Positions 1-4,675 are shown, numbered from the stretch's first letter. The stretch is 64,000 nt of DNA from Candidatus Elulimicrobium sp. (GCA_020720815.1 DYNY01000004.1:1783-65782), one strand, 5' to 3'. Program-made: numbers and translations. The notes: generated from the letters alone by a model not told the origin.

Positions 1-37
1 TATTGTGTTGCGTAACAATAGTGTTGTATATTACAAT

Positions 38-160
38 AATAGCGGCGAAGCAAACCAAAAAATCCTTTCCTTCATTTCTTTCGCCTTGCGGCGGGGGGGT
101 CTGGGGGGAGCCGCAAAAAATGATAAGGATTTTTTGGGTTTGCTTCGCCGTTTCAGTCTC
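38..160. repeat. Structured ~120-nt repeat, copy 1. A long imperfect hairpin (about 44-149) has a 24-bp outer stem, an inner 7-bp stem and a G-rich apical loop (ggcgggggggtctggggggag).
   Basis: 5' arm ggcgaagcaaaccaaaaaatcctt pairs with 3' arm aaggattttttgggtttgcttcgcc. About 80% identical to a second copy at 2622-2742. Confidence 0.6.
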
Positions 161-494
161 CGAAAAGAGCAATCTTATTTTAACATTTTTGTTTGCTCTT
201 TTCTCCACCCTCACGGCGACCGAGGCGCTCTCGTATCCGCACTTAGTGGTAACGCTAACGTCCGCGAACCACACACAATCGCCTCCGCATAGCCCGCTCG
301 CATTCGCTCGCGCTGGCTGCTTCAGCGTTCTGTGTGTTCACTCGGTAACTTCGAGAGAGTGTGATGGTGACTCAAAGAATAATGGATTGTGCTAAAGCAC
401 AAACAAATCTGTATGTGCTTGACCCGCCCTCCCGTTCGCGCACAACAATCCCCATCGTTTTTAGAAGATATTATAAAAGGATGGGGATTGCTCC

Positions 495-1535
495 CTATTT
501 CTTTAGGGTCATCTCCATCTCTCTGAACCAAAACAAAATTTCTTCTTTTTTCAAAATTATGCCAATTGCAAGTGTCAGTCTTTTCTGCAAAAACCTATGT
601 AATGCTTTAGGAAATTTTTGTTTTTTTAGTTCGGCATTTTTGTAAAGAAGAAATAAGAAAAGATCGATATAGTATATTGGCAACAACTTTTCTGCCTCTC
701 GTCTTAACTTGACAGTACTAGCAGTTTTACCAAAGTAAGTCTTCAAAATTAAAACCTTCTCGTCTTCTGTTAGTTTTCTTCCCAAAGTAAACTGATAGAT
801 AAAATCCATTAGTAAGTAGGCAACATCATGCATTGGGTTTCCTATTACTGATGTTTGCCAATCTACCAAATACCAGTGGTTTTTATGCAAAAAATTCTCT
901 GGAAATGGATCGTGATGAATAACCGATTTCCCAGACAGTAAATCTGTAACTGTTGCCAAGTATTTTCTGTATATGTCTTTTTTTTCAAAAAATATTTTTT
1001 CTATATCACCACCTTTGTTTGACGAAATACTTTTTAGTCGCTGATTATAAAGTTTTGACTTCCTACTCTCATCTGCATCAATGCTAAAAATTTTTTGGGC
1101 ATCTTTTGTTACTTTGACCTTGTGTAGTTTCTTTACAGTTTCTACAACCCCTGAAAAGTCAGAATCGACCTTTGAGCTATCGTGAGCAATGTATTCCTCA
1201 ATGAGAAACTCAAAAGGAAAAAACTTTTTACTTGTATCAACAAAGTATACTTTTGGGGTTATTTCGTAGCTCTCCAAGAATTTCAGTACTTGGTATTCGT
1301 TCTTTATACTTATTACATTTCCTGTATACCAATCTTTATCTTTCCAAAAATTGAAACGCATTATCAATTTTTGACCATCTTTAAAAGTAAGAAGATAGTT
1401 TGCATTTGCTAGTCCTTTGCCAATTTCTTTTACTACTTTGAGTTTCGGCAACCCTATCAAAAAAGTATTTTTTGGATGGGGTTGTTTGGCAAAGAAATGT
1501 TTTATCTGTTTAATCGGAATCATGTTTGAAATCAC
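495..1535 (-). CDS. Aminoglycoside/choline-kinase-like phosphotransferase (APH fold kinase)
   Basis: 346 aa. Catalytic loop HHDPFPENFL (HxDxxxxN) and metal-binding LVDWQ (DWE-like) motifs typical of the APH/ChoK kinase family. Last gene of a 3-gene minus-strand operon. Confidence 0.55.
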   Translation of the reverse strand: MISNMIPIKQIKHFFAKQPHPKNTFLIGLPKLKVVKEIGKGLANANYLLTFKDGQKLIMRFNFWKDKDWYTGNVISIKNEYQVLKFLESYEITPKVYFVDTSKKFFPFEFLIEEYIAHDSSKVDSDFSGVVETVKKLHKVKVTKDAQKIFSIDADESRKSKLYNQRLKSISSNKGGDIEKIFFEKKDIYRKYLATVTDLLSGKSVIHHDPFPENFLHKNHWYLVDWQTSVIGNPMHDVAYLLMDFIYQFTLGRKLTEDEKVLILKTYFGKTASTVKLRREAEKLLPIYYIDLFLFLLYKNAELKKQKFPKALHRFLQKRLTLAIGIILKKEEILFWFREMEMTLKK

Positions 1536-2337
1536 GCTTTAGGTAATCAAAATGTACTGGTTTTGCTTGAATATCACGATTTAAGGATTTTATATTGATT
1601 TCATCACCAACAACTGGTATCTCAAGCTCAAAAACCTCACCAGTTTTTGGTCCACTTCCTCCTTGAATGCTTGTGACTCCGTCAGTTGCGTGGCTCACAA
1701 CATCGTCGAGTGTTTCCTCGTGTTCAAGCTCGACAACCACAATATGTTTGTCTACTTTTGGTTGAATTGTGTGAGCGACACGCATGAGAAATGCTAGCTG
1801 ATCTTTTGACCGTTTGTCAACACTTTCGGGTGTTTCTAAAACATCAACACCACCCTGCTTCCAATGCTGAGTAGCTGTGCTTCCATGCGGAACTGATTGT
1901 TTTAGACTTGATAGTAATTCCCTAAAAGCCGGTGCGTAAGCGGGCTCATTGTGGGAGATTGGTTGAGATTCTGAATTGAGTATATCCGTACTCCTAACTC
2001 GATACTGATCCTCTCGTTCTTTTGGGTCGTCCCAAACAGTAAATCCGCGGTCTATTAAATAATTTTTGACGATTTGCGCAGAGTCTCGTGTACGTTTTCT
2101 TGGGCTGTAAACGACACAAACAACGTCCTCATCTTTGTTGAGTCTTTGAGAAATATTTTCAGCCGATGCCTCAATCTCCTTGATACCTTGTTCAGTTAGA
2201 TCAATGGTGTCATCATCAGGTATGCCTTTTAATTGTTCATTATACGGAGTGTGCCCATGACGAACACGAAATACTTTTATATTTTGCCAAGACGGCTTTT
2301 CGTTTGATTCTATCCTGCTATTGGGAAGTTGTTCCAT
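1510..2337 (-). CDS. Histidine phosphatase superfamily protein (phosphoglycerate-mutase-like N-terminal domain plus an uncharacterised C-terminal domain)
   Basis: 275 aa. RHG motif (VFRVRHGHTPYN) near the N-terminus and an SPRKRTRDSAQ segment typical of the PGAM family. Overlaps the downstream kinase gene by 26 nt. Confidence 0.55.
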   Translation of the reverse strand: MEQLPNSRIESNEKPSWQNIKVFRVRHGHTPYNEQLKGIPDDDTIDLTEQGIKEIEASAENISQRLNKDEDVVCVVYSPRKRTRDSAQIVKNYLIDRGFTVWDDPKEREDQYRVRSTDILNSESQPISHNEPAYAPAFRELLSSLKQSVPHGSTATQHWKQGGVDVLETPESVDKRSKDQLAFLMRVAHTIQPKVDKHIVVVELEHEETLDDVVSHATDGVTSIQGGSGPKTGEVFELEIPVVGDEINIKSLNRDIQAKPVHFDYLKRDFKHDSD

Positions 2338-2338
2338 A

Positions 2339-2536
2339 TTATTTTAATAATTCCTCCATTGGAACGCCTAACGATTTTGCGATTTTTTGAATTGTCTGAA
2401 CGCTTGGTTTTGTAACTACACCACCCTCAATTTTTGTAAGGGTAGAGTATTTGATATTGGCTTTTTTCGCCAAGTCGTCTTGCGTTAAACCCTGTTTTGT
2501 TCGCACTCGTTTTATGTTCTGTGATATAGTTGCCAT
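2339..2536 (-). CDS. XRE-family helix-turn-helix transcriptional regulator
   Basis: 65 aa. The segment QGLTQDDLAKKANIKYSTLTKIEGG is a classic Cro/C1 HTH. The stop lies 1 nt from the phosphatase start. Confidence 0.75.
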   Translation of the reverse strand: MATISQNIKRVRTKQGLTQDDLAKKANIKYSTLTKIEGGVVTKPSVQTIQKIAKSLGVPMEELLK

Positions 2537-2621
2537 AGTATGCTACTTTTGATAGTATAGAAATATGAGTCATCACTTTCTTTGCTCACAAAACAAGCAT
2601 AGCAAAAATAGTGATATTTTT

Positions 2622-2742
2622 CAAATAACGGCGAAGCAAGACCAAAAATTTCCTTTCCATTTCTTTTTCCGCTTCGCGGTGGAGGGGTGGGGGGAGGAGA
2701 CGCGAGAAAAATGCAAGGAAATTTTTTGGTTTTTGCACACGC
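2622..2742. repeat. Structured ~120-nt repeat, copy 2. It is degenerate: the outer stem is eroded while the inner stem and G-rich loop are retained.
   Basis: Aligns with copy 1 (ggcgaagcaa.accaaaaa..cctttcc...catttcttt..cgc.t.gcgg..ggggt.ggggggag). The inner stem carries compensatory substitutions relative to copy 1. Confidence 0.6.
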
Positions 2743-2867
2743 GAGTCCGCGAGCGTGTCCGAGGCGCATTGGTTCGCATCACCACGCAATCGGAGCGTAC
2801 GAGGCAGTTTCAAGCCACCACGCGCTCCGCGCGTGCGAAGTGGGTTCGAGCAAAGGTTAATACATCA

Positions 2868-2983
2868 CCGCAGAAAGAAACTTCCGAATCCGAAAGGTGG
2901 GAAGAAGCCCGCGCCGAAGGCGCGGGAGTGGGCAAAAGAGCCCGTCGCTTCGCGACGAATTGGGACGGGACGGGTGTGGCGAA
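2868..2983. repeat. 116-bp inverted repeat, left copy (IR-L), GC-rich
   Basis: Exact reverse complement of 4430-4545. Imperfect similarity continues for about 16 more bp (2984-3000 vs 4413-4429). Confidence 0.9.
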
Positions 2984-3022
2984 ATGCGCGAATTTGTCTC
3001 TTGTTTCGTATCTAAAAGCAAT

Positions 3023-4675
3023 ATGAATATCAAACCAAAATATTTTCTATACGCGCGAAAATCGTCGGAAGATGACGACCGACAAGTGATGTCTATTGAG
3101 GCACAGCTTTTTGAACTGCGAGAATTGGCGCGTAAAGAAAGTCTTGAAATTCTTGAGGAATTTCAAGAGTCGAAAAGCGCAAAGACACCGGGGCGCGAGG
3201 TGTTCGGTGAAATGTTCGCGAAAATTGAGAAGTTAGATGGTGTTGGCATATTGGCGTGGCATCCCGACCGCCTCGCACGTAACAGTATTGACGGTGGACG
3301 AGTAATTTACGCCGTAGACACTCGCAAGGTTGTGTCTTTGCGCTTTCCGACATTTTGGTTTGAACCAACCCCGCAAGGGCTCTTTATGTTGCAAGTGGCG
3401 TTCGGGCAATCTAAATATTACTCGGATAATCTATCTGACAATATCAAGCGCGGCATCCGCCAAAAATTGCGACGAGGCGAATGGTTGAATTTAGCTCCCT
3501 TTGGCTACACCAATAATCCGAAGGTGAGAAATATTGAGCCTCATCCGACAAATGCTCGCGTGGTGAAGTTAGCTTTTCAAGAATACGCCAAAGGGTCGTA
3601 TACTTTTGTTTCGCTCGCGCAATTTTTAGCGGACTTGGGCGTGGTGACTCGCAACAAAACGCCACTTGCCAAAGTTTCCATCAAACGGCTTTTGACACAT
3701 CGGGCGTATCTTGGTTTCGTCAAACATGGTGACGAATGGTTTGATGGAAACTTTGAGCCAATTATTTCTCCGCAATTGTTTGAAGCCGTGCAGAAAGTAT
3801 TGCAAACGAAAGACAGGCCGCGCAAAAGGAAAATCAAGCATGATTTTCCTTTCACTGGACTTTTTCGATGTGGCGAGTGTGGCAGTATGATTTCCGCGCA
3901 GTGGGCGACTGGAAAATCTGGTGGTCGCTATCGGTATTATCGGTGCTCGAAAAAGCGCGGCCACTGTTCGCAAGCGTATGTGCAGGAAAGTGAACTTACG
4001 CGGCAAATCTGTGCACGGCTTCAAACAATCTCGCTTTGCGATCGCTATACCGACTGGATGTTGGACAAAGTGAAAATGTGGGAGCGCGAGGAAATTGGAG
4101 CGTCGCAAAGCGAGGTTCAAAATCTTTCTGATGGAATCAAAGCGAACGAGGAGCGCATGGAAAAACTGCTCTCGGCGTATCTTGATGGCGATGTACCGAA
4201 AGAGGTTTATCTCAAACGAAAAGATGTTCTCATGCGCTCTCTCGCCGCTTTGAAGGAAAAAATGAAAGATTTTGAACGCGGAAGAAATAATTGGGTCGAA
4301 CCCTTGCGGAAATGGATTTTAGATACGAAACAAGCCAATTTTTTGTCCTCCTCCTCTGATTTGTACCAAATCAAGTCGTTCGTCCAAAAAATCGGAACGA
4401 ACCCTCTGGTTCGTGACAAATCCGCCCAGTTCGCCACACCCGTCCCGTCCCAATTCGTCGCGAAGCGACGGGCTCTTTTGCCCACTCCCGCGCCTTCGGC
4501 GCGGGCTTCTTCCCACCTTTCGGATTCGGAAGTTTCTTTCTGCGGAGAGAGGGGGATTCGAACCCCCGATTGGGTTTCCCCAATACTACCTTTCCAAGGT
4601 AGCGCGTTCAACCACTCTGCCATCTCTCCATTATTATTTTACTTCAATAAATGTTACTTTAAATTAAATATTTAA
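3023..4675 (+). CDS. Large serine recombinase (resolvase/invertase catalytic domain, recombinase domain, zinc ribbon, coiled coil)
   Basis: N-terminal YARKSSEDDDRQVMSIEAQ serine-recombinase catalytic motif; zinc ribbon CGECG...CSKKRGHC; recombinase domain. Start chosen at ATG 3023 (MNIKPKYF). There is no stop until 4675, so the reading frame runs through IR-R and tRNA-Ser. The C-terminal ~80 aa are probably not biologically meaningful. Confidence 0.8.
   Translation: MNIKPKYFLYARKSSEDDDRQVMSIEAQLFELRELARKESLEILEEFQESKSAKTPGREVFGEMFAKIEKLDGVGILAWHPDRLARNSIDGGRVIYAVDTRKVVSLRFPTFWFEPTPQGLFMLQVAFGQSKYYSDNLSDNIKRGIRQKLRRGEWLNLAPFGYTNNPKVRNIEPHPTNARVVKLAFQEYAKGSYTFVSLAQFLADLGVVTRNKTPLAKVSIKRLLTHRAYLGFVKHGDEWFDGNFEPIISPQLFEAVQKVLQTKDRPRKRKIKHDFPFTGLFRCGECGSMISAQWATGKSGGRYRYYRCSKKRGHCSQAYVQESELTRQICARLQTISLCDRYTDWMLDKVKMWEREEIGASQSEVQNLSDGIKANEERMEKLLSAYLDGDVPKEVYLKRKDVLMRSLAALKEKMKDFERGRNNWVEPLRKWILDTKQANFLSSSSDLYQIKSFVQKIGTNPLVRDKSAQFATPVPSQFVAKRRALLPTPAPSARASSHLSDSEVSFCGERGIRTPDWVSPILPFQGSAFNHSAISPLLFYFNKCYFKLNI
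4430..4545. repeat. 116-bp inverted repeat, right copy (IR-R)
   Basis: Exact reverse complement of 2868-2983. Its right end overlaps the 3' end of tRNA-Ser by 3 nt. Confidence 0.9.
4543..4629 (-). tRNA. tRNA-Ser (anticodon GGA), type II with a long variable arm
   Basis: Reverse complement reads GGAGAGA..CTACCTTGGAAAGGTAG..GGGGGTTCGAATCCCCC..TCTCTCC-G. Acceptor 7 bp, anticodon loop TTGGAAA, T-arm GGGGG/CCCCC, discriminator G. CCA is not encoded. Confidence 0.85.

What the first reader, a model, noticed from the sequence alone, without database searches (positions are those of the whole stretch)
38..2742. Two copies of a ~120-nt structured element with compensatory base changes and a G-rich apical loop, bracketing a 3-gene cassette
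Copy 1 (38-160) folds into one long hairpin. The 24-bp outer stem is ggcgaagcaaaccaaaaaatcctt / aaggattttttgggtttgcttcgcc, the inner stem is cttgcggc / gccgcaa, and the apical loop is gggggggtctggggggag. Copy 2 (2622-2742) is about 80% identical. Where it differs in the stem, the changes are compensatory: copy 1 has aatcc / ggatt while copy 2 has tttcc / ggaaa. That covariation argues for selection on the structure (RNA, or DNA cruciform) rather than on the sequence. The G-tracts (GG, GGGGGGG, GGGGGG, GG) could also form a G-quadruplex, which is striking in an AT-rich genome. Each copy is followed by a segment of about 60% GC (161-355 and 2743-2867). The pair flanks the HTH / phosphatase / kinase operon. 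Candidate interpretations: a MITE-like mobile element, recombination sites used by the neighbouring serine recombinase, or an sRNA or attenuator.
Basis: seen in the sequence. Interest (0 to 1): 0.7.

Follow-up and report, generated by a model that had tools for sequence, protein, structure and literature searches.

The report
Hairpin module of CPR integrative element
The two hairpins are copies of an almost invariant palindromic module belonging to a very widespread, apparently undescribed family of small gene-carrying mobile elements of Patescibacteria that a large serine recombinase inserts at the 3' ends of tRNA genes; they are not free-standing MITEs or the recombinase's crossover sites.

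Summary
The hairpins are real, but they are one module (HP) of a larger unit. Copy 2 (2629-2736) is the canonical form. HP is the 5' end of a ~244-nt unit 'U' (2629-2872) that ends in a tRNA-like ..CACCGCA and runs through a 130-nt 'arm' into a large serine recombinase (LSR) gene. An inverted copy of the arm abuts tRNA-Ser.

One genome scan found at least 119 stretches, nearly all in Patescibacteria. Of 94 complete hairpins, 85 are followed by the rest of U. U occurs as outward-facing inverted repeats around a cassette made of an XRE HTH gene, hypervariable cargo and a conserved non-coding 'RE'.

Junction comparisons put the LSR crossover at U's CCA-like 3' end, about 210 nt from the hairpin: attB (tRNA|host) x attP (U|arm). 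The first 140 nt of U are 96-99% identical between most elements whose LSRs are 37-51% identical.

Both cassette ends carry promoter-like elements facing U. On the HTH side, an in-frame ATG opens a leader ORF that runs through the hairpin to the LSR start.

Copy 1 (43-150) is a rare solo hairpin joining two cassettes. It is best read as the scar left after an LSR module was lost from a tandem insertion.

The MITE reading is refuted, 'recombinase site' is wrong in position, and 'attenuator or leader' is the best-supported reading. No prior description was found.

The parts
1..42 (+). B-type flank of a further cassette lying left of the window. It is AT-rich and has a promoter-like site at 12-40 facing the hairpin.
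   Evidence: Same class as the flanks next to XRE HTH genes in other loci. Promoter-like match GTAACA-17-AATAAT. Only 42 nt are visible, and this stretch is not covered by any independent assembly.
43..150 (.). Hairpin copy 1: a solo HP with both outer stems complete. It joins a B flank (left) to an A flank (right, reversed).
   Evidence: It is the only B|HP|A junction among 94 hairpins in genome loci. A second example is L142.
151..206 (-). A flank: a conserved hairpin (stems 162-172 / 193-203) whose loop carries an extended -10 (TGTTAAAAT, 185->177 on the minus strand) pointing towards the hairpin module.
   Evidence: Helix 91% paired, 2 pairs with changes on both sides, 0/500 shuffles reach the covariation score. 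A -10-like hexamer (TG-extended in most cases, 41 matches) ends 21-31 nt (mostly 23-27) before CGGCG in 45 of 51 distinct A flanks.
151..500 (-). RE: the conserved non-coding 3' end of the cassette, including a terminator-like hairpin at 446-490.
   Evidence: 40-68 of the fetched loci match 151-260 and 380-500 by BLAST; 260-380 is optional. No Rfam match. Not related to LE.
495..2337 (-). Cargo of this cassette: an APH-family kinase (495-1535) and a histidine-phosphatase-family protein (1510-2337).
   Evidence: Pfam APH 7.5e-16 and His_Phos_1 5e-08. No nucleotide match to this cargo in the other loci. Cargo in other cassettes is diverse.
2339..2536 (-). XRE-family HTH gene, the first gene of the cassette, transcribed away from U.
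   Evidence: Pfam HTH_3 5.3e-17. Homologues lie next to the B flank in about 40 loci.
2537..2628 (.). B flank: the divergent control region. It holds the HTH promoter-like site 2624->2596 (minus strand) and the start of the leader ORF.
   Evidence: In the family, 44 of 67 B flanks carry an ATG in the frame xCG GCG AAG.
2629..2736 (+). Hairpin copy 2: the canonical HP, the 5' module of unit U. Its 3' arm ends at ..GGTTTTTGC.
   Evidence: 97-99% identical to HP in many loci.
2737..2872 (+). LE, the rest of unit U: hairpin LE1 (2737-2758), the invariant CCGAGGCGC (2759-2767), a long GC-rich hairpin, and a tail ending ..GGGTTCGAGCAAAGGTTAATACATCACCGCA.
   Evidence: LE1 helix 94% paired, 3 of 6 pairs changed on both sides, 0/500 shuffles. 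The two U copies of one element stop being alike at ..CACCGC. The end of U matches the 3' end of the local tRNA.
2565..3026 (+). Leader ORF (153 codons) running through HP, LE and arm. Its stop overlaps the LSR start (ATGA).
   Evidence: The same arrangement (ATGA overlap, or a stop 13-15 nt before the LSR ATG) occurs in 10 other loci. Gene callers call this ORF in L150 and L151. Caveat: stop codons are depleted in all frames.
2865..3022 (+). Proximal arm: left copy of the inverted repeat around the LSR gene (2865-2998), plus a 23-nt extension (3000-3022).
   Evidence: Repeats I1 (134 nt, 97% complementary) and I4. Equivalent 120-133-nt arms, 90-100% complementary (100% in five of six), occur in six other loci.
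3023..4675 (+). Large serine recombinase gene. The conserved core runs to about 4411. The ORF has no stop of its own and reads on through the distal arm and the antisense strand of tRNA-Ser.
   Evidence: Pfam Resolvase, Recombinase and Zn_ribbon_recom. Nearest solved structure is SPbeta YokA/SprA, E 1.6e-13. 5471 related protein clusters, 483-693 aa among the 120 best-scoring.
4415..4548 (-). Distal arm: the inverted copy of 2865-2998. Its outer end overlaps the 3' end of tRNA-Ser.
   Evidence: The same arrangement is seen in JGI contig L124.
4542..4629 (-). tRNA-Ser(GGA), the integration target (attL side).
   Evidence: ARAGORN and Rfam. In other loci the distal arm abuts tRNA-Gln, tRNA-Ser or tRNA-Ala in the same way.

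Best explanation
Shown. The two hairpins are instances of HP, the roughly 108-nt palindromic 5' module of a ~244-nt unit U (HP + LE). U belongs to a family of small integrative elements of Patescibacteria. The canonical integrated layout is: tRNA | arm - LSR gene - arm' | U (reversed) | B flank - XRE HTH - cargo - RE - A flank | U | host genes. U therefore occurs as outward-facing inverted repeats around the cassette, and the LSR gene sits between inverted arms. U ends in the same CC(G/A)C(CA) as the neighbouring tRNA.

Inferred from junctions. The LSR recombines attB (tRNA 3' end | host) with attP (U 3' end | arm). This gives tRNA|arm and U|host. Because U's end mimics a tRNA end, a second element can insert behind a resident one.

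Copy 2 in the window is the LSR-proximal U. Copy 1 is a rare solo HP.

Inferred for copy 1. A second element had inserted at the distal U of the first. Its LSR module, which lay between two inverted U copies, was then deleted by recombination or slippage between the two palindromic HPs. One HP with both stems complete was left between two cassettes.

Most likely role of HP (inferred, not shown). HP is the first structured element of transcripts that start at promoters in the cassette ends and read outward. On the HTH side the transcript probably starts at or just before an AUG 7 nt upstream of HP. A leader ORF then has to be translated through HP, LE and the arm to reach the LSR start codon. 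HP would act as a roadblock that keeps recombinase synthesis low. On the other side the same unit leads into the host genes that the insertion cut off from the tRNA promoter. At the DNA level the palindrome causes loop inversion, assembly breaks and the deletions that create solo copies.
For: Family and layout. A genome scan with a 19-20-nt arm motif returned at least 119 stretches, nearly all Patescibacteria MAGs of many classes. 94 complete hairpins were classified: 45 B|HP->LE, 40 A|HP->LE, 1 solo. Module maps are consistent, and cassettes always start with an XRE HTH gene.

Inverted repeats. Paired U copies are 99-99.6% identical over 204-237 nt in most pairs (95% in L150). Arms of 120-134 nt flank the LSR gene and abut tRNA-Gln, tRNA-Ser or tRNA-Ala; they are 100% complementary in five of seven loci (97% in the window, 90% in L072).

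Crossover position. U|arm and tRNA|arm become identical from CCGCA / CCGCCA / CCACCA / CAGCCA onward. The distal U diverges from the proximal U right after CC(G/A)C. Distal U is followed by co-oriented housekeeping genes: DnaG, YchF, RecG and an M24 peptidase.

Tandem insertion and the precursor of the scar. L150 reads ..cassette2-A|U->|arm..LSR..arm'|<-U|B-cassette1 (as oriented). L043 and L021 are similar. L142 is a second solo HP between two cassettes.

Conservation. The first 140 nt of U are 96-99% identical in 11 of 15 loci (73-93% in the other four), while the LSRs are 37-51% and the HTH proteins 32-37% identical in most of them.

Transcription and translation signals. A -10-like hexamer, TG-extended in most cases (41 matches), ends 21-31 nt (mostly 23-27) upstream of HP in 45 of 51 A flanks. 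An ATG lies in one specific frame in 44 of 67 B flanks (30 of them at -7), against 2 and 5 of 67 in the other two frames and 3 of 45 in A flanks. That frame stays open to an ATGA overlap, or to 13-15 nt before the LSR ATG, in 11 loci from about five U/arm lineages.

Structure. LE1 and the A hairpin covary. HP stems covary between window copies 1 and 2 and in the U2/U3 copies of L150 (GC..GC becomes AC..GT).
Against: No expression data exist, so promoters, the transcription start and leader translation are all inferred from sequence.

Stop codons are depleted in every frame and on both strands of U+arm. An open frame arises in 5-45% of dinucleotide-preserving shuffles. The canonical frame is only moderately more open after B-type U than after A-type U (21/41 versus 14/45 with at least 100 codons).

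The HP loop occurs in both orientations relative to U (37 G-rich and 38 C-rich distinct sequences). This fits a DNA palindrome better than an RNA with one required sequence.

Near-invariance of the HP sequence is more than a simple roadblock hairpin would need. All genome loci were fetched with an exact arm motif, so the measured conservation is inflated.

In three copies (L003, L035, L086) HP is partly or wholly deleted, in L086 next to what may be an intact LSR gene (only its first ~125 residues are on the contig).

No empty attB and no excised circle were observed.

Copy 1's left 96 nt rest on a single assembly, at what may be a contig end.

The LSR module is inverted relative to U in 2 of 18 loci (L048, L152). 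The arms may therefore have a function that the model does not specify.
Confidence: 0.6

Rival explanations
1. HP is itself a site-specific recombination site, an attC-like folded site. Cassettes would be inserted, excised or exchanged at it by the LSR or by another enzyme, making the locus a serine-recombinase analogue of an integron array.
For: Sequence conservation switches on exactly at CGGCG on both cassette ends. Two loci carry cassettes in tandem separated by a solo HP (window; L142). The inner part of HP is found inverted. Several copies are truncated at different points inside HP (L016, L022, L026, L032, L042, L098). Cargo is as diverse as in integrons.
Against: The junctions that exchange partners (tRNA, U, arm, host) all map to the CCA-like end of U, not to HP. 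Solo HPs are very rare: 1 of 94 in the genome loci, plus 1 in the metagenome scan. Cargo variability lies between the HTH gene and RE, not at HP. Known LSR sites are 40-50 bp with half-sites abutting a central dinucleotide, not two arms 60 nt apart (established knowledge). L150 shows a precursor from which a solo HP can arise by simple deletion.
Confidence: 0.13
2. HP (with LE1) works on single-stranded DNA. It would be a single-strand origin, priming site or ssDNA promoter that converts or expresses the element after uptake by natural transformation or conjugation. Carrying it in both orientations would ensure that either incoming strand has one active copy.
For: It is the most conserved part of the element, far more so than the proteins, as expected for a site read by conserved host machinery. 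It folds equally well on both strands as DNA. It is always present as an inverted pair. The elements have spread across many Patescibacteria classes. No replication or transfer genes were seen in the cassettes.
Against: There is no direct evidence. No -35/-10 pair lies in the stem, and no similarity to known sso/ssi elements was tested or found. Rfam and the phage and plasmid collections gave nothing. The loop, which matters in known single-strand origins, is inverted in half of the copies.
Confidence: 0.1
3. The two copies are a MITE-like non-autonomous transposon, or an assembly artefact (collapsed or chimeric repeat).
For: Copy 1 alone looks like a 108-nt element with 24-bp terminal inverted repeats. 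23 of 131 family hairpins lie on contigs that stop inside the hairpin. The Logan contig L001 stops in the loop of copy 1. Copy 1 sits 42 nt from the start of the window.
Against: The family is not dispersed as solo copies. No target-site duplications were seen. Copy 2 and its surroundings are reproduced in independent assemblies and in more than 100 other genomes. Both arms of copy 1 share the lineage-specific AATCC/GGATT variant that copy 2 lacks, which argues against a chimera of copy 2 with another copy. L142 shows the same junction type in a 22-kb contig.
Confidence: 0.05
4. The G-rich loop forms a G-quadruplex that is the functional feature.
For: G runs of 6-7 in the loop. Two-tetrad G4 motifs are present on the G-rich strand.
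Against: No four-run G3+ motif occurs in any form. The G-rich strand is the sense strand in only half of the copies. Run lengths vary freely, from C5 to C20.
Confidence: 0.03

Closest known systems
Large-serine-recombinase integrative elements (phage-type serine integrases such as SPbeta SprA, A118/LI and phiC31; attP x attB)
   Same: The recombinase has the Resolvase + Recombinase + zinc-ribbon architecture and weak but significant similarity to SPbeta YokA/SprA and A118 integrase. The junction pattern fits a conservative exchange between one element site and one chromosomal site.
   Different: The recombinase gene lies between 120-134-nt, mostly perfect, inverted repeats and is occasionally found inverted. 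An intact attP-like junction stays inside the integrated element. The P-side of the site is a 244-nt, near-invariant structured unit with a 108-nt palindrome. The elements are only 3.5-7 kb and carry no phage genes.
SCCmec and other staphylococcal cassette chromosomes (Ccr recombinases)
   Same: LSR-driven cassettes carry resistance and other accessory genes and insert at the 3' end of one conserved gene. They regenerate a target-like site at their far end, so further cassettes stack in tandem. Recombinase-less cassettes occur in arrays. CcrB, CcrA and CcrC are the best NCBIfam matches, but far below their cut-offs.
   Different: The target is the 3' end of tRNA genes, not rlmH. The elements are ten times smaller. 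U, HP, RE and the arms have no SCC counterpart.
Tycheposons of Prochlorococcus (bioRxiv 10.1101/2020.12.28.424599)
   Same: Cargo-carrying elements in streamlined genomes integrate at tRNA genes, stack by repeated integration at the same site and leave degenerate remnants. A minority use a large serine recombinase.
   Different: Tycheposons are flanked by direct partial-tRNA repeats, mostly use tyrosine recombinases and often carry replication genes. The paper describes no hairpin module, no inverted-repeat architecture and no conserved non-coding units.
Integron attC sites and cassette arrays
   Same: Imperfect palindromes of about 60-140 nt lie at cassette boundaries, cargo is hypervariable, and rare tandem cassettes are separated by one palindrome.
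   Different: No IntI tyrosine recombinase and no R/L box consensus. The sequence is nearly invariant, whereas attC conserves structure only. Cassettes carry their own regulator and promoters. The mapped crossover is not in the palindrome.
Leader-ORF or translational-coupling control of transposase and recombinase genes, and flip/flop terminal palindromes (parvovirus ITRs, poxvirus telomeres)
   Same: A structured, translated leader ends in an ATGA overlap with the recombinase start. The inner part of the palindrome exists in two mutually inverted forms.
   Different: Nothing has been shown experimentally. The palindrome is internal to chromosomes, not at a DNA end, and no nicking (HUH) enzyme is present.

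Membership tests
MITE (miniature inverted-repeat transposable element) | Many dispersed solo copies in a genome | tested here: not met
   Two copies in 64 kb, both inside one element. 1 solo copy among 94 hairpins. 1 further solo family member in the metagenome scan.
MITE (miniature inverted-repeat transposable element) | Target-site duplication flanking the terminal inverted repeats | tested here: not met
   Flanks of copy 1 (..aataatag / tttcagtc..) and of the paired U copies show no duplication.
Large serine recombinase att site (attP/attB) | A 40-50-bp site at which flanking DNA is exchanged | tested here: not met
   For HP: the exchange points map to the CC(G/A)C(CA) end of U and of the tRNA, about 210 nt from HP.
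Large serine recombinase att site (attP/attB) | Imperfect dyad symmetry around a central dinucleotide | tested here: inconclusive
   For the U-end|arm junction: the best dyads score 13-17 of 30 positions and their centres differ between lineages.
LSR-mobilised integrative element | Recombinase with Resolvase, Recombinase and zinc-ribbon domains | tested here: met
   Pfam E-values 5e-21, 6e-14 and 4e-11.
LSR-mobilised integrative element | Integrated copy bounded by hybrid sites (attL, attR), with a matching empty site or excised circle | tested here: inconclusive
   Three junction types fit attB x attP, and host genes follow the distal U. No empty site and no circle were retrieved.
Integron attC | R''/L''-L'/R' boxes with GTTRRRY, an adjacent IntI tyrosine recombinase, and promoterless cassettes | tested here: not met
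   No such boxes in the sequence. The neighbouring recombinase is a serine recombinase. Cassettes start with their own HTH gene and promoter region.
Any Rfam RNA family | A covariance-model match at or near the gathering score | tested here: not met
   Only tRNAs reach threshold in the window. Nothing credible matches HP, LE, arm or RE even at E up to 10.
Intrinsic terminator or attenuator hairpin | GC-rich stem, 3-8-nt loop, then a U tract | tested here: not met
   The scan finds terminator-like sites in the arms and RE but none at HP. The HP loop is 18-22 nt and the T runs lie inside the stem. This does not exclude a translational roadblock.
G-quadruplex | Four runs of at least 3 G separated by loops of 1-7 nt | tested here: not met
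   No match in copy 1, copy 2 or either canonical form. Only two-tetrad motifs are present.
Upstream (leader) ORF translationally coupled to the recombinase gene | A conserved in-frame start codon and an open frame that ends at or overlaps the downstream start | tested here: met
   ATG in the canonical frame in 44 of 67 B flanks, against 2 and 5 of 67 in the other frames. ATGA overlap, or a stop 13-15 nt upstream, in 11 loci. Weakened by the general depletion of stop codons.
Upstream (leader) ORF translationally coupled to the recombinase gene | Evidence that the ORF is actually translated | not testable with these tools
   Needs ribosome profiling or reporter fusions.

The most novel reading that the evidence does not exclude
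U with its HP palindrome is a new kind of portable cis-module. It would be a tRNA-3'-end mimic that serves at once as recombinase site, outward-reading leader and homology/boundary element. Together with an invertible LSR module held between a tRNA and this tRNA mimic, it would form a serine-recombinase-based cassette-capture platform that spreads accessory genes (resistance-like and defence genes) across the whole Patescibacteria radiation. HP would be the element that lets redundant recombinase modules be shed, so that multi-cassette arrays build up, or that lets the element establish itself from incoming single-stranded DNA.
Probability: 0.2. Interest if true: 0.9.

Novelty: new variant of a known kind. 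Interest (0 to 1): 0.72.

Why it matters
Patescibacteria have tiny genomes, and few mobile elements have been described for them in the literature I could search. Here, one non-coding motif leads to hundreds of small elements in many classes of the radiation. They carry very different cargo, including Erm-like rRNA methylase, aminoglycoside-kinase-like and rifampicin-phosphotransferase-like genes, a Shedu nuclease and a restriction enzyme.

If the model holds, three things follow:
- It identifies a major route of gene exchange in this radiation.
- It gives a simple sequence tag (HP/U) for finding such elements and their cargo in metagenomes.
- It offers a compact recombinase with natural tRNA-end targets and an unusual architecture: the recombinase gene lies between perfect inverted repeats, and the partner site mimics a tRNA.

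Two observations are open questions in their own right. A 140-nt non-coding module is nearly invariant next to recombinases that are only about 40% identical. The control logic of the leader and hairpin is also unknown. It also explains why assemblies of these genomes break at this repeat.

Tried and rejected
1. Rfam at gathering and at E up to 10: nothing for HP, LE, arm or RE.
2. Phage and plasmid collections, distant BLAST with U: no match. The IMG/VR scan gave only two matches without family context, taken as chance.
3. Idea that RE (151-500 read on the plus strand) is a degenerate reversed U, so that HP would sit at the centre of a large palindrome: no similarity beyond the 9-nt CCGAGGCGC. 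Rejected.
4. Idea that U is a tRNA-like RNA closed by an acceptor-like helix: the 5' GGCG / 3' CGCC pairing exists only in variants ending in CCGCCA and is lost in those ending in CCACCA. Rejected.
5. Idea that the leader ORF encodes a conserved protein: the LE1 variants and the two loop orientations give unrelated peptides, and U lengths differ by non-multiples of 3. Only openness of the frame could be selected.
6. Search for dyad symmetry at the U|arm junction: weak and inconsistent.
7. Idea that the cassette inverts as a switch: the LSR-proximal flank is B-type in all 18 informative loci. Rejected. The LSR module itself, however, is inverted in L048 and L152.
8. Idea of a free 2-micron-like isomerising circle: not testable. 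L151's 399-nt perfect inverted repeat reaches the contig end and may be a fold-back artefact.
9. Metagenome scan for solo hairpins: it mostly returned an unrelated palindromic repeat family that shares only the CGGCGAAGCAA...TTGCTTCGCCG termini.
10. Literature searches on Patescibacteria/CPR with serine recombinase, tRNA, inverted repeat and integrative element: no description of this element found.
11. Covariation in the outer HP stem could not be assessed fairly, because every genome locus was fetched with an exact match to that arm.

Full report
**1. What is in the window**

Copy 1 runs from CGGCG at 43 to CGCCG at 150. It has a 24-bp outer stem with one bulge, the inner stem TTGCGGC/GCCGCAA, and the loop GGGGGGGTCTGGGGGGA. 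It folds much better than dinucleotide-preserving shuffles:
- as RNA, z -6.2 on the plus strand and -6.7 on the minus strand;
- as DNA, z -7.3 and -7.5.

Copy 2 (2629-2736) is 76% identical to copy 1 over the aligned columns. It shows the compensatory AATCC/GGATT to TTTCC/GGAAA change and a covarying inner stem. Its 3' arm, however, stops at ..GGTTTTTGC and lacks TTCGCCG, and its folding advantage is modest (z -2.7 to -4.1).

There are only two copies in the 64-kb window. Between them, on the minus strand, lie an XRE HTH gene, a His_Phos_1 gene and an APH-family kinase gene.

Downstream of copy 2 comes a large serine recombinase (LSR) gene. It is flanked by a 134-nt, 97% complementary inverted repeat, 2865-2998 / 4415-4548, here called the 'arms'. 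The distal arm overlaps the 3' end of tRNA-Ser(GGA).

Independent assemblies reproduce window 97-2744 (Logan contig L001) and the tRNA-Ser/arm/LSR side (Logan L123 and JGI L124). Window 1-96 has no independent support.

**2. The hairpin is one module of a very widespread unit**

Nearly all are Patescibacteria MAGs of many classes: Saccharibacteria, Nomura-, Kaiser-, Yanofsky-, Moran-, Doudna-, Kerfeld-, Levy- and Uhrbacteria among others. One is a complete genome. The same scan of IMG/VR gave only two matches without family context, which I take as chance. The phage and plasmid collections gave nothing.

In the fetched loci the motif continues into a nearly invariant sequence equal to window copy 2. 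It has these parts:
- HP, the hairpin;
- a small hairpin, LE1;
- the invariant CCGAGGCGC;
- a GC-rich stretch, LE.

BLAST of the window against the loci shows two conserved blocks, 26-500 and 2626-2860. The cargo genes between them have no nucleotide match in the other loci.

Of 94 complete hairpins, 85 are followed by LE. Forty-five have an AT-rich 'B' flank next to an XRE HTH gene. Forty have a conserved 'A' flank (..GCTCTTTTCGGAGACTGAAA|CGGCG) that ends a conserved non-coding region, RE, which corresponds to window 151-500 on the minus strand. Seven of the remaining eight also appear to continue into LE (cut by a contig end or slightly variant). The only hairpin with both stems complete and no LE is window copy 1.

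**3. Architecture**

The two HP+LE copies around a cassette face outward. They are 99-99.6% identical over 204-237 nt in most pairs (95% over 244 nt in L150), and the likeness stops at ..CACCGC. I call this ~244-nt unit U (window 2629-2872).

In every locus where both sides of an LSR gene are visible, the order is U -> arm -> LSR -> arm'. The arms are 120-134 nt and 100% complementary in five of seven loci (97% in the window, 90% in L072). In six of the seven, the distal arm abuts the 3' end of a real tRNA gene: Gln, Ser (twice) or Ala (three times); L090 has no detected tRNA.

U|arm and tRNA|arm become identical from the last 4-8 nt of the tRNA onward: CCGCA, CCGCCA, CCACCA or CAGCCA. U therefore ends like the local tRNA. 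The distal U diverges from the proximal U immediately after CC(G/A)C. It is followed by co-oriented housekeeping genes: DnaG, YchF, RecG and an M24 peptidase.

These three junction types are what a conservative exchange would give: attB (tRNA 3' end | host) x attP (U 3' end | arm) -> tRNA|arm + U|host. In L053 the sequences fit a shared CCAC core exactly. This is an inference from junctions. I retrieved neither an empty site nor a circle.

The crossover lies about 210 nt from the hairpin, so HP is not the LSR crossover site.

**4. Tandem insertion and the origin of copy 1**

L150 is a 71.7-kb JGI contig whose LSR is 89% identical to that of the window. Written's orientation (the reverse of the locus coordinates), it reads..cassette2-A|U2->|arm..LSR..arm'|<-U|B-HTH, APH, HisPhos-RE-A|U'->|host. 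One element has inserted at the tRNA-like end of the distal U of another. L043 and L021 show the same kind of junction. L149 shows it with a diverged U.

In this state an LSR module lies between two inverted U copies. HP is a palindrome, so the stems of the two HPs are also direct repeats of each other. A deletion between them removes LE-arm-LSR-arm'-LE' and leaves one HP with both stems complete, between an A flank and a B flank. That is exactly window copy 1. It is also L142, the only family member among the 24 hits of a metagenome scan for solo hairpins.

Both arms of copy 1 share the AATCC/GGATT variant that copy 2 lacks. Copy 1 is therefore not the inverted-repeat partner of copy 2 and is unlikely to be a chimera with it.

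The MITE reading is refuted: solo copies are very rare and no target-site duplications were seen.

**5. Cargo and proteins**

Cassettes are 0.45-4 kb. They always begin with a 65-94-aa XRE HTH gene 28-100 nt from U and end with RE.

Pfam families matched by the 28 cargo proteins tested occur once each. They include an rRNA adenine dimethylase (Erm-like), APH, PPDK_N plus PEP-utilisers (rifampicin-phosphotransferase-like), Shedu SduA, an MvaI/BcnI endonuclease, deaminases, Ham1, methyltransferases, TfoX and DUF305.

The LSR family is very large: 5471 90%-identity clusters with E at most 1e-30. The 120 best are all at least 72% identical, unnamed, and 483-693 aa long. Its closest solved relative is SPbeta YokA/SprA (E 1.6e-13). 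CcrB, XisF and CcrA are the best NCBIfam models, far below their cut-offs.

**6. Conservation pattern**

The first 140 nt of U are 96-99% identical to window copy 2 in 11 of 15 LSR-linked loci (73-93% in L021, L045, L056 and L096). In most of these loci the adjacent LSR is only 37-51% identical and the HTH protein only 32-37%. The closest LSR (84%, L056) sits next to a less similar U (93%).

U is thus either under very strong sequence constraint or is exchanged between elements. There is a caveat: all genome loci were fetched with an exact 19-20-nt match in the left arm, so more diverged versions are under-sampled. Diverged versions do exist:
- The U2/U3 copies of L150 have CGGCGGAAACAAAACCAT.. 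with a compensating GC..GC to AC..GT change at the base of the stem.
- The U* of L149 keeps a GC-rich stem with a C-rich loop and a ..CCGCA end.

**7. RNA or DNA?**

Covariation supports hairpins next to HP:
- LE1: 94% of cells paired, 3 of 6 pairs changed on both sides, 0 of 500 shuffles reach the score.
- A-flank hairpin: 91% paired, 2 pairs changed on both sides, G-U pairs on the U-sense strand.

Against a sequence-specific RNA role for the HP loop, the inner part of HP occurs in both orientations relative to LE: 37 distinct G-rich and 38 distinct C-rich forms. As RNA, the canonical G-rich form folds no better than shuffles (z -0.6), while the C-rich form gives z -2.5. As DNA, both strands fold alike.

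Homopolymer runs in the loop vary from 5 to 20 nt. Of 131 family hairpins, 23 lie on contigs that end inside HP. No four-run G3+ quadruplex motif is present.

**8. Signals that U is transcribed and, on one side, translated**

The loop of the A-flank hairpin carries an extended -10 (TGnTAnAAT). A -10-like hexamer, TG-extended in most cases (41 matches), ends 21-31 nt (mostly 23-27) upstream of CGGCG in 45 of 51 distinct A flanks, although the surrounding loop sequence varies.

B flanks are AT-rich, with -10-like hexamers ending most often 13 or 18 nt upstream. In 44 of 67 distinct B flanks there is an ATG in the frame xCG GCG AAG CAA, and 30 of these are exactly at -7. The other two frames have 2 and 5 of 67, and A flanks have 3 of 45. 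A -10 ending 13 nt before CGGCG would place the transcription start at about the A of that ATG, giving a leaderless message (inference).

That frame stays open through HP, LE and the arm. It ends either in an ATGA overlap with the LSR start (window 2565-3026, L002, L004, L046, L090, L102, L150) or 13-15 nt upstream of it (L015, L045, L053, L071). Gene callers call this ORF in L150 and L151.

Several caveats apply:
- Stop codons are depleted in all frames and on both strands.
- Some open frame appears in 5-45% of dinucleotide shuffles.
- The frame is only moderately more open after B-type U than after A-type U.
- The encoded peptide is not conserved between LE1 variants or loop orientations.

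If anything is selected, it is ribosome passage rather than a protein.

**9. Best mechanistic reading**

HP is the first structured element of outward-reading transcripts. On the HTH side it would act as a roadblock in a translated leader that gates LSR synthesis. On the RE side it would lead a unit that restores transcription into the host genes displaced from the tRNA promoter.

At the DNA level its palindromy produces loop inversion, deletions (solo scars, shedding of LSR modules) and assembly breaks. The steps shown and the steps inferred are separated in the Best explanation section.

Two observations remain unexplained. The first is why the HP sequence is nearly invariant. The second is what the perfect arms do: the LSR module is inverted relative to U in L048 and L152, so that it reads tRNA -> arm -> LSR, against 16 canonical loci.

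**10. Comparison with known systems, and novelty**

The recombinase and the integration logic are those of LSR integrative elements. Stacking of cassettes at a regenerated target resembles SCCmec. The ecology resembles tycheposons.

I could not find the following features described anywhere (Rfam):
- a 244-nt tRNA-end-mimicking unit with a 108-nt palindrome;
- its use as outward-facing inverted repeats;
- the recombinase gene between perfect inverted arms;
- the conserved RE.

I therefore rate this as a new variant of a known kind, with a real chance that the U/HP module is something new in function.

Noticed in passing
window 3023-4675: The LSR ORF has no stop codon of its own. It reads through the distal arm and the antisense strand of tRNA-Ser. 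The 120 best-scoring homologues (all at least 72% identical) range from 483 to 693 aa, so the C-terminal tail depends on what the element is joined to and would differ between integrated, tandem and excised states.
   Followed up: partly
L152 1643-3600; L048 4100-5900: The LSR module between the arms is inverted relative to the canonical order (tRNA -> arm -> LSR -> arm' <- U). In L152 this involves an LSR 96% identical to that of the window. The arms may therefore bound an invertible segment that places the LSR behind either the U leader or the tRNA gene.
   Followed up: partly
window 4312-4414 and 3000-3022: The inverted repeat around the LSR continues for 23 nt (3000-3022 / 4312-4334), but the right side carries an 80-nt insertion (4335-4414) that ends in a terminator-like hairpin (4397-4414, minus strand).
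   Followed up: no
window 2881-2959 and 4454-4532: The arms contain two terminator-like hairpins oriented from the LSR gene outward. At the 3' side they would stop LSR transcripts before they run antisense into the tRNA gene.
   Followed up: no
loci L005-L119 (HP loops): The homopolymer runs in the HP loop vary widely between copies, from C5 to C20 and G4 to G9. About one in six family hairpins sits on a contig that ends inside the loop. This means either hypervariable tracts or sequencing and assembly trouble, and the tracts lie inside the putative leader ORF.
   Followed up: partly
cassettes in L002-L120 (for example L107, L085, L023, L084): Cargo includes an Erm-like rRNA adenine dimethylase, APH-type kinases, a PEP-utilising rifampicin-phosphotransferase-like protein, a Shedu SduA nuclease and an MvaI/BcnI restriction enzyme. 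These are resistance-like and defence genes on small mobile cassettes in Patescibacteria.
   Followed up: partly
L131-L146 and other loci: An unrelated palindromic repeat family in other metagenomes shares only the termini CGGCGAAGCAA...TTGCTTCGCCG. It is typically preceded by GTCATTGCGAGCCG, often on both sides in inverted orientation.
   Followed up: no
L149 1-5517: Next to tRNA-Ser(GCT) there is a chain of three abutting modules, each bounded by its own perfect inverted repeat: 129 nt, 185 nt (a diverged U with a C-rich-loop hairpin) and the LSR arms. The module next to the tRNA has no called gene and may be a decayed LSR.
   Followed up: partly
L003 2167-2260; L035 3507-3650; L086 578-734: Some copies of U have HP and/or LE1 precisely deleted. 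In L003, for example, CGGCGAAGCAAAACCAAAAA is joined directly to GCGCATTGG... In L086 such a copy sits upstream of an LSR gene that may be intact (only its first ~125 residues are on the contig), so HP may not be strictly required.
   Followed up: no
L151 1710-2108 / 3525-3923: A 399-nt perfect inverted repeat around the LSR includes 29 nt of the B flank and reaches the contig end. It is probably a fold-back path of the assembler through the repeat, which is a warning for automated annotation of these loci.
   Followed up: no
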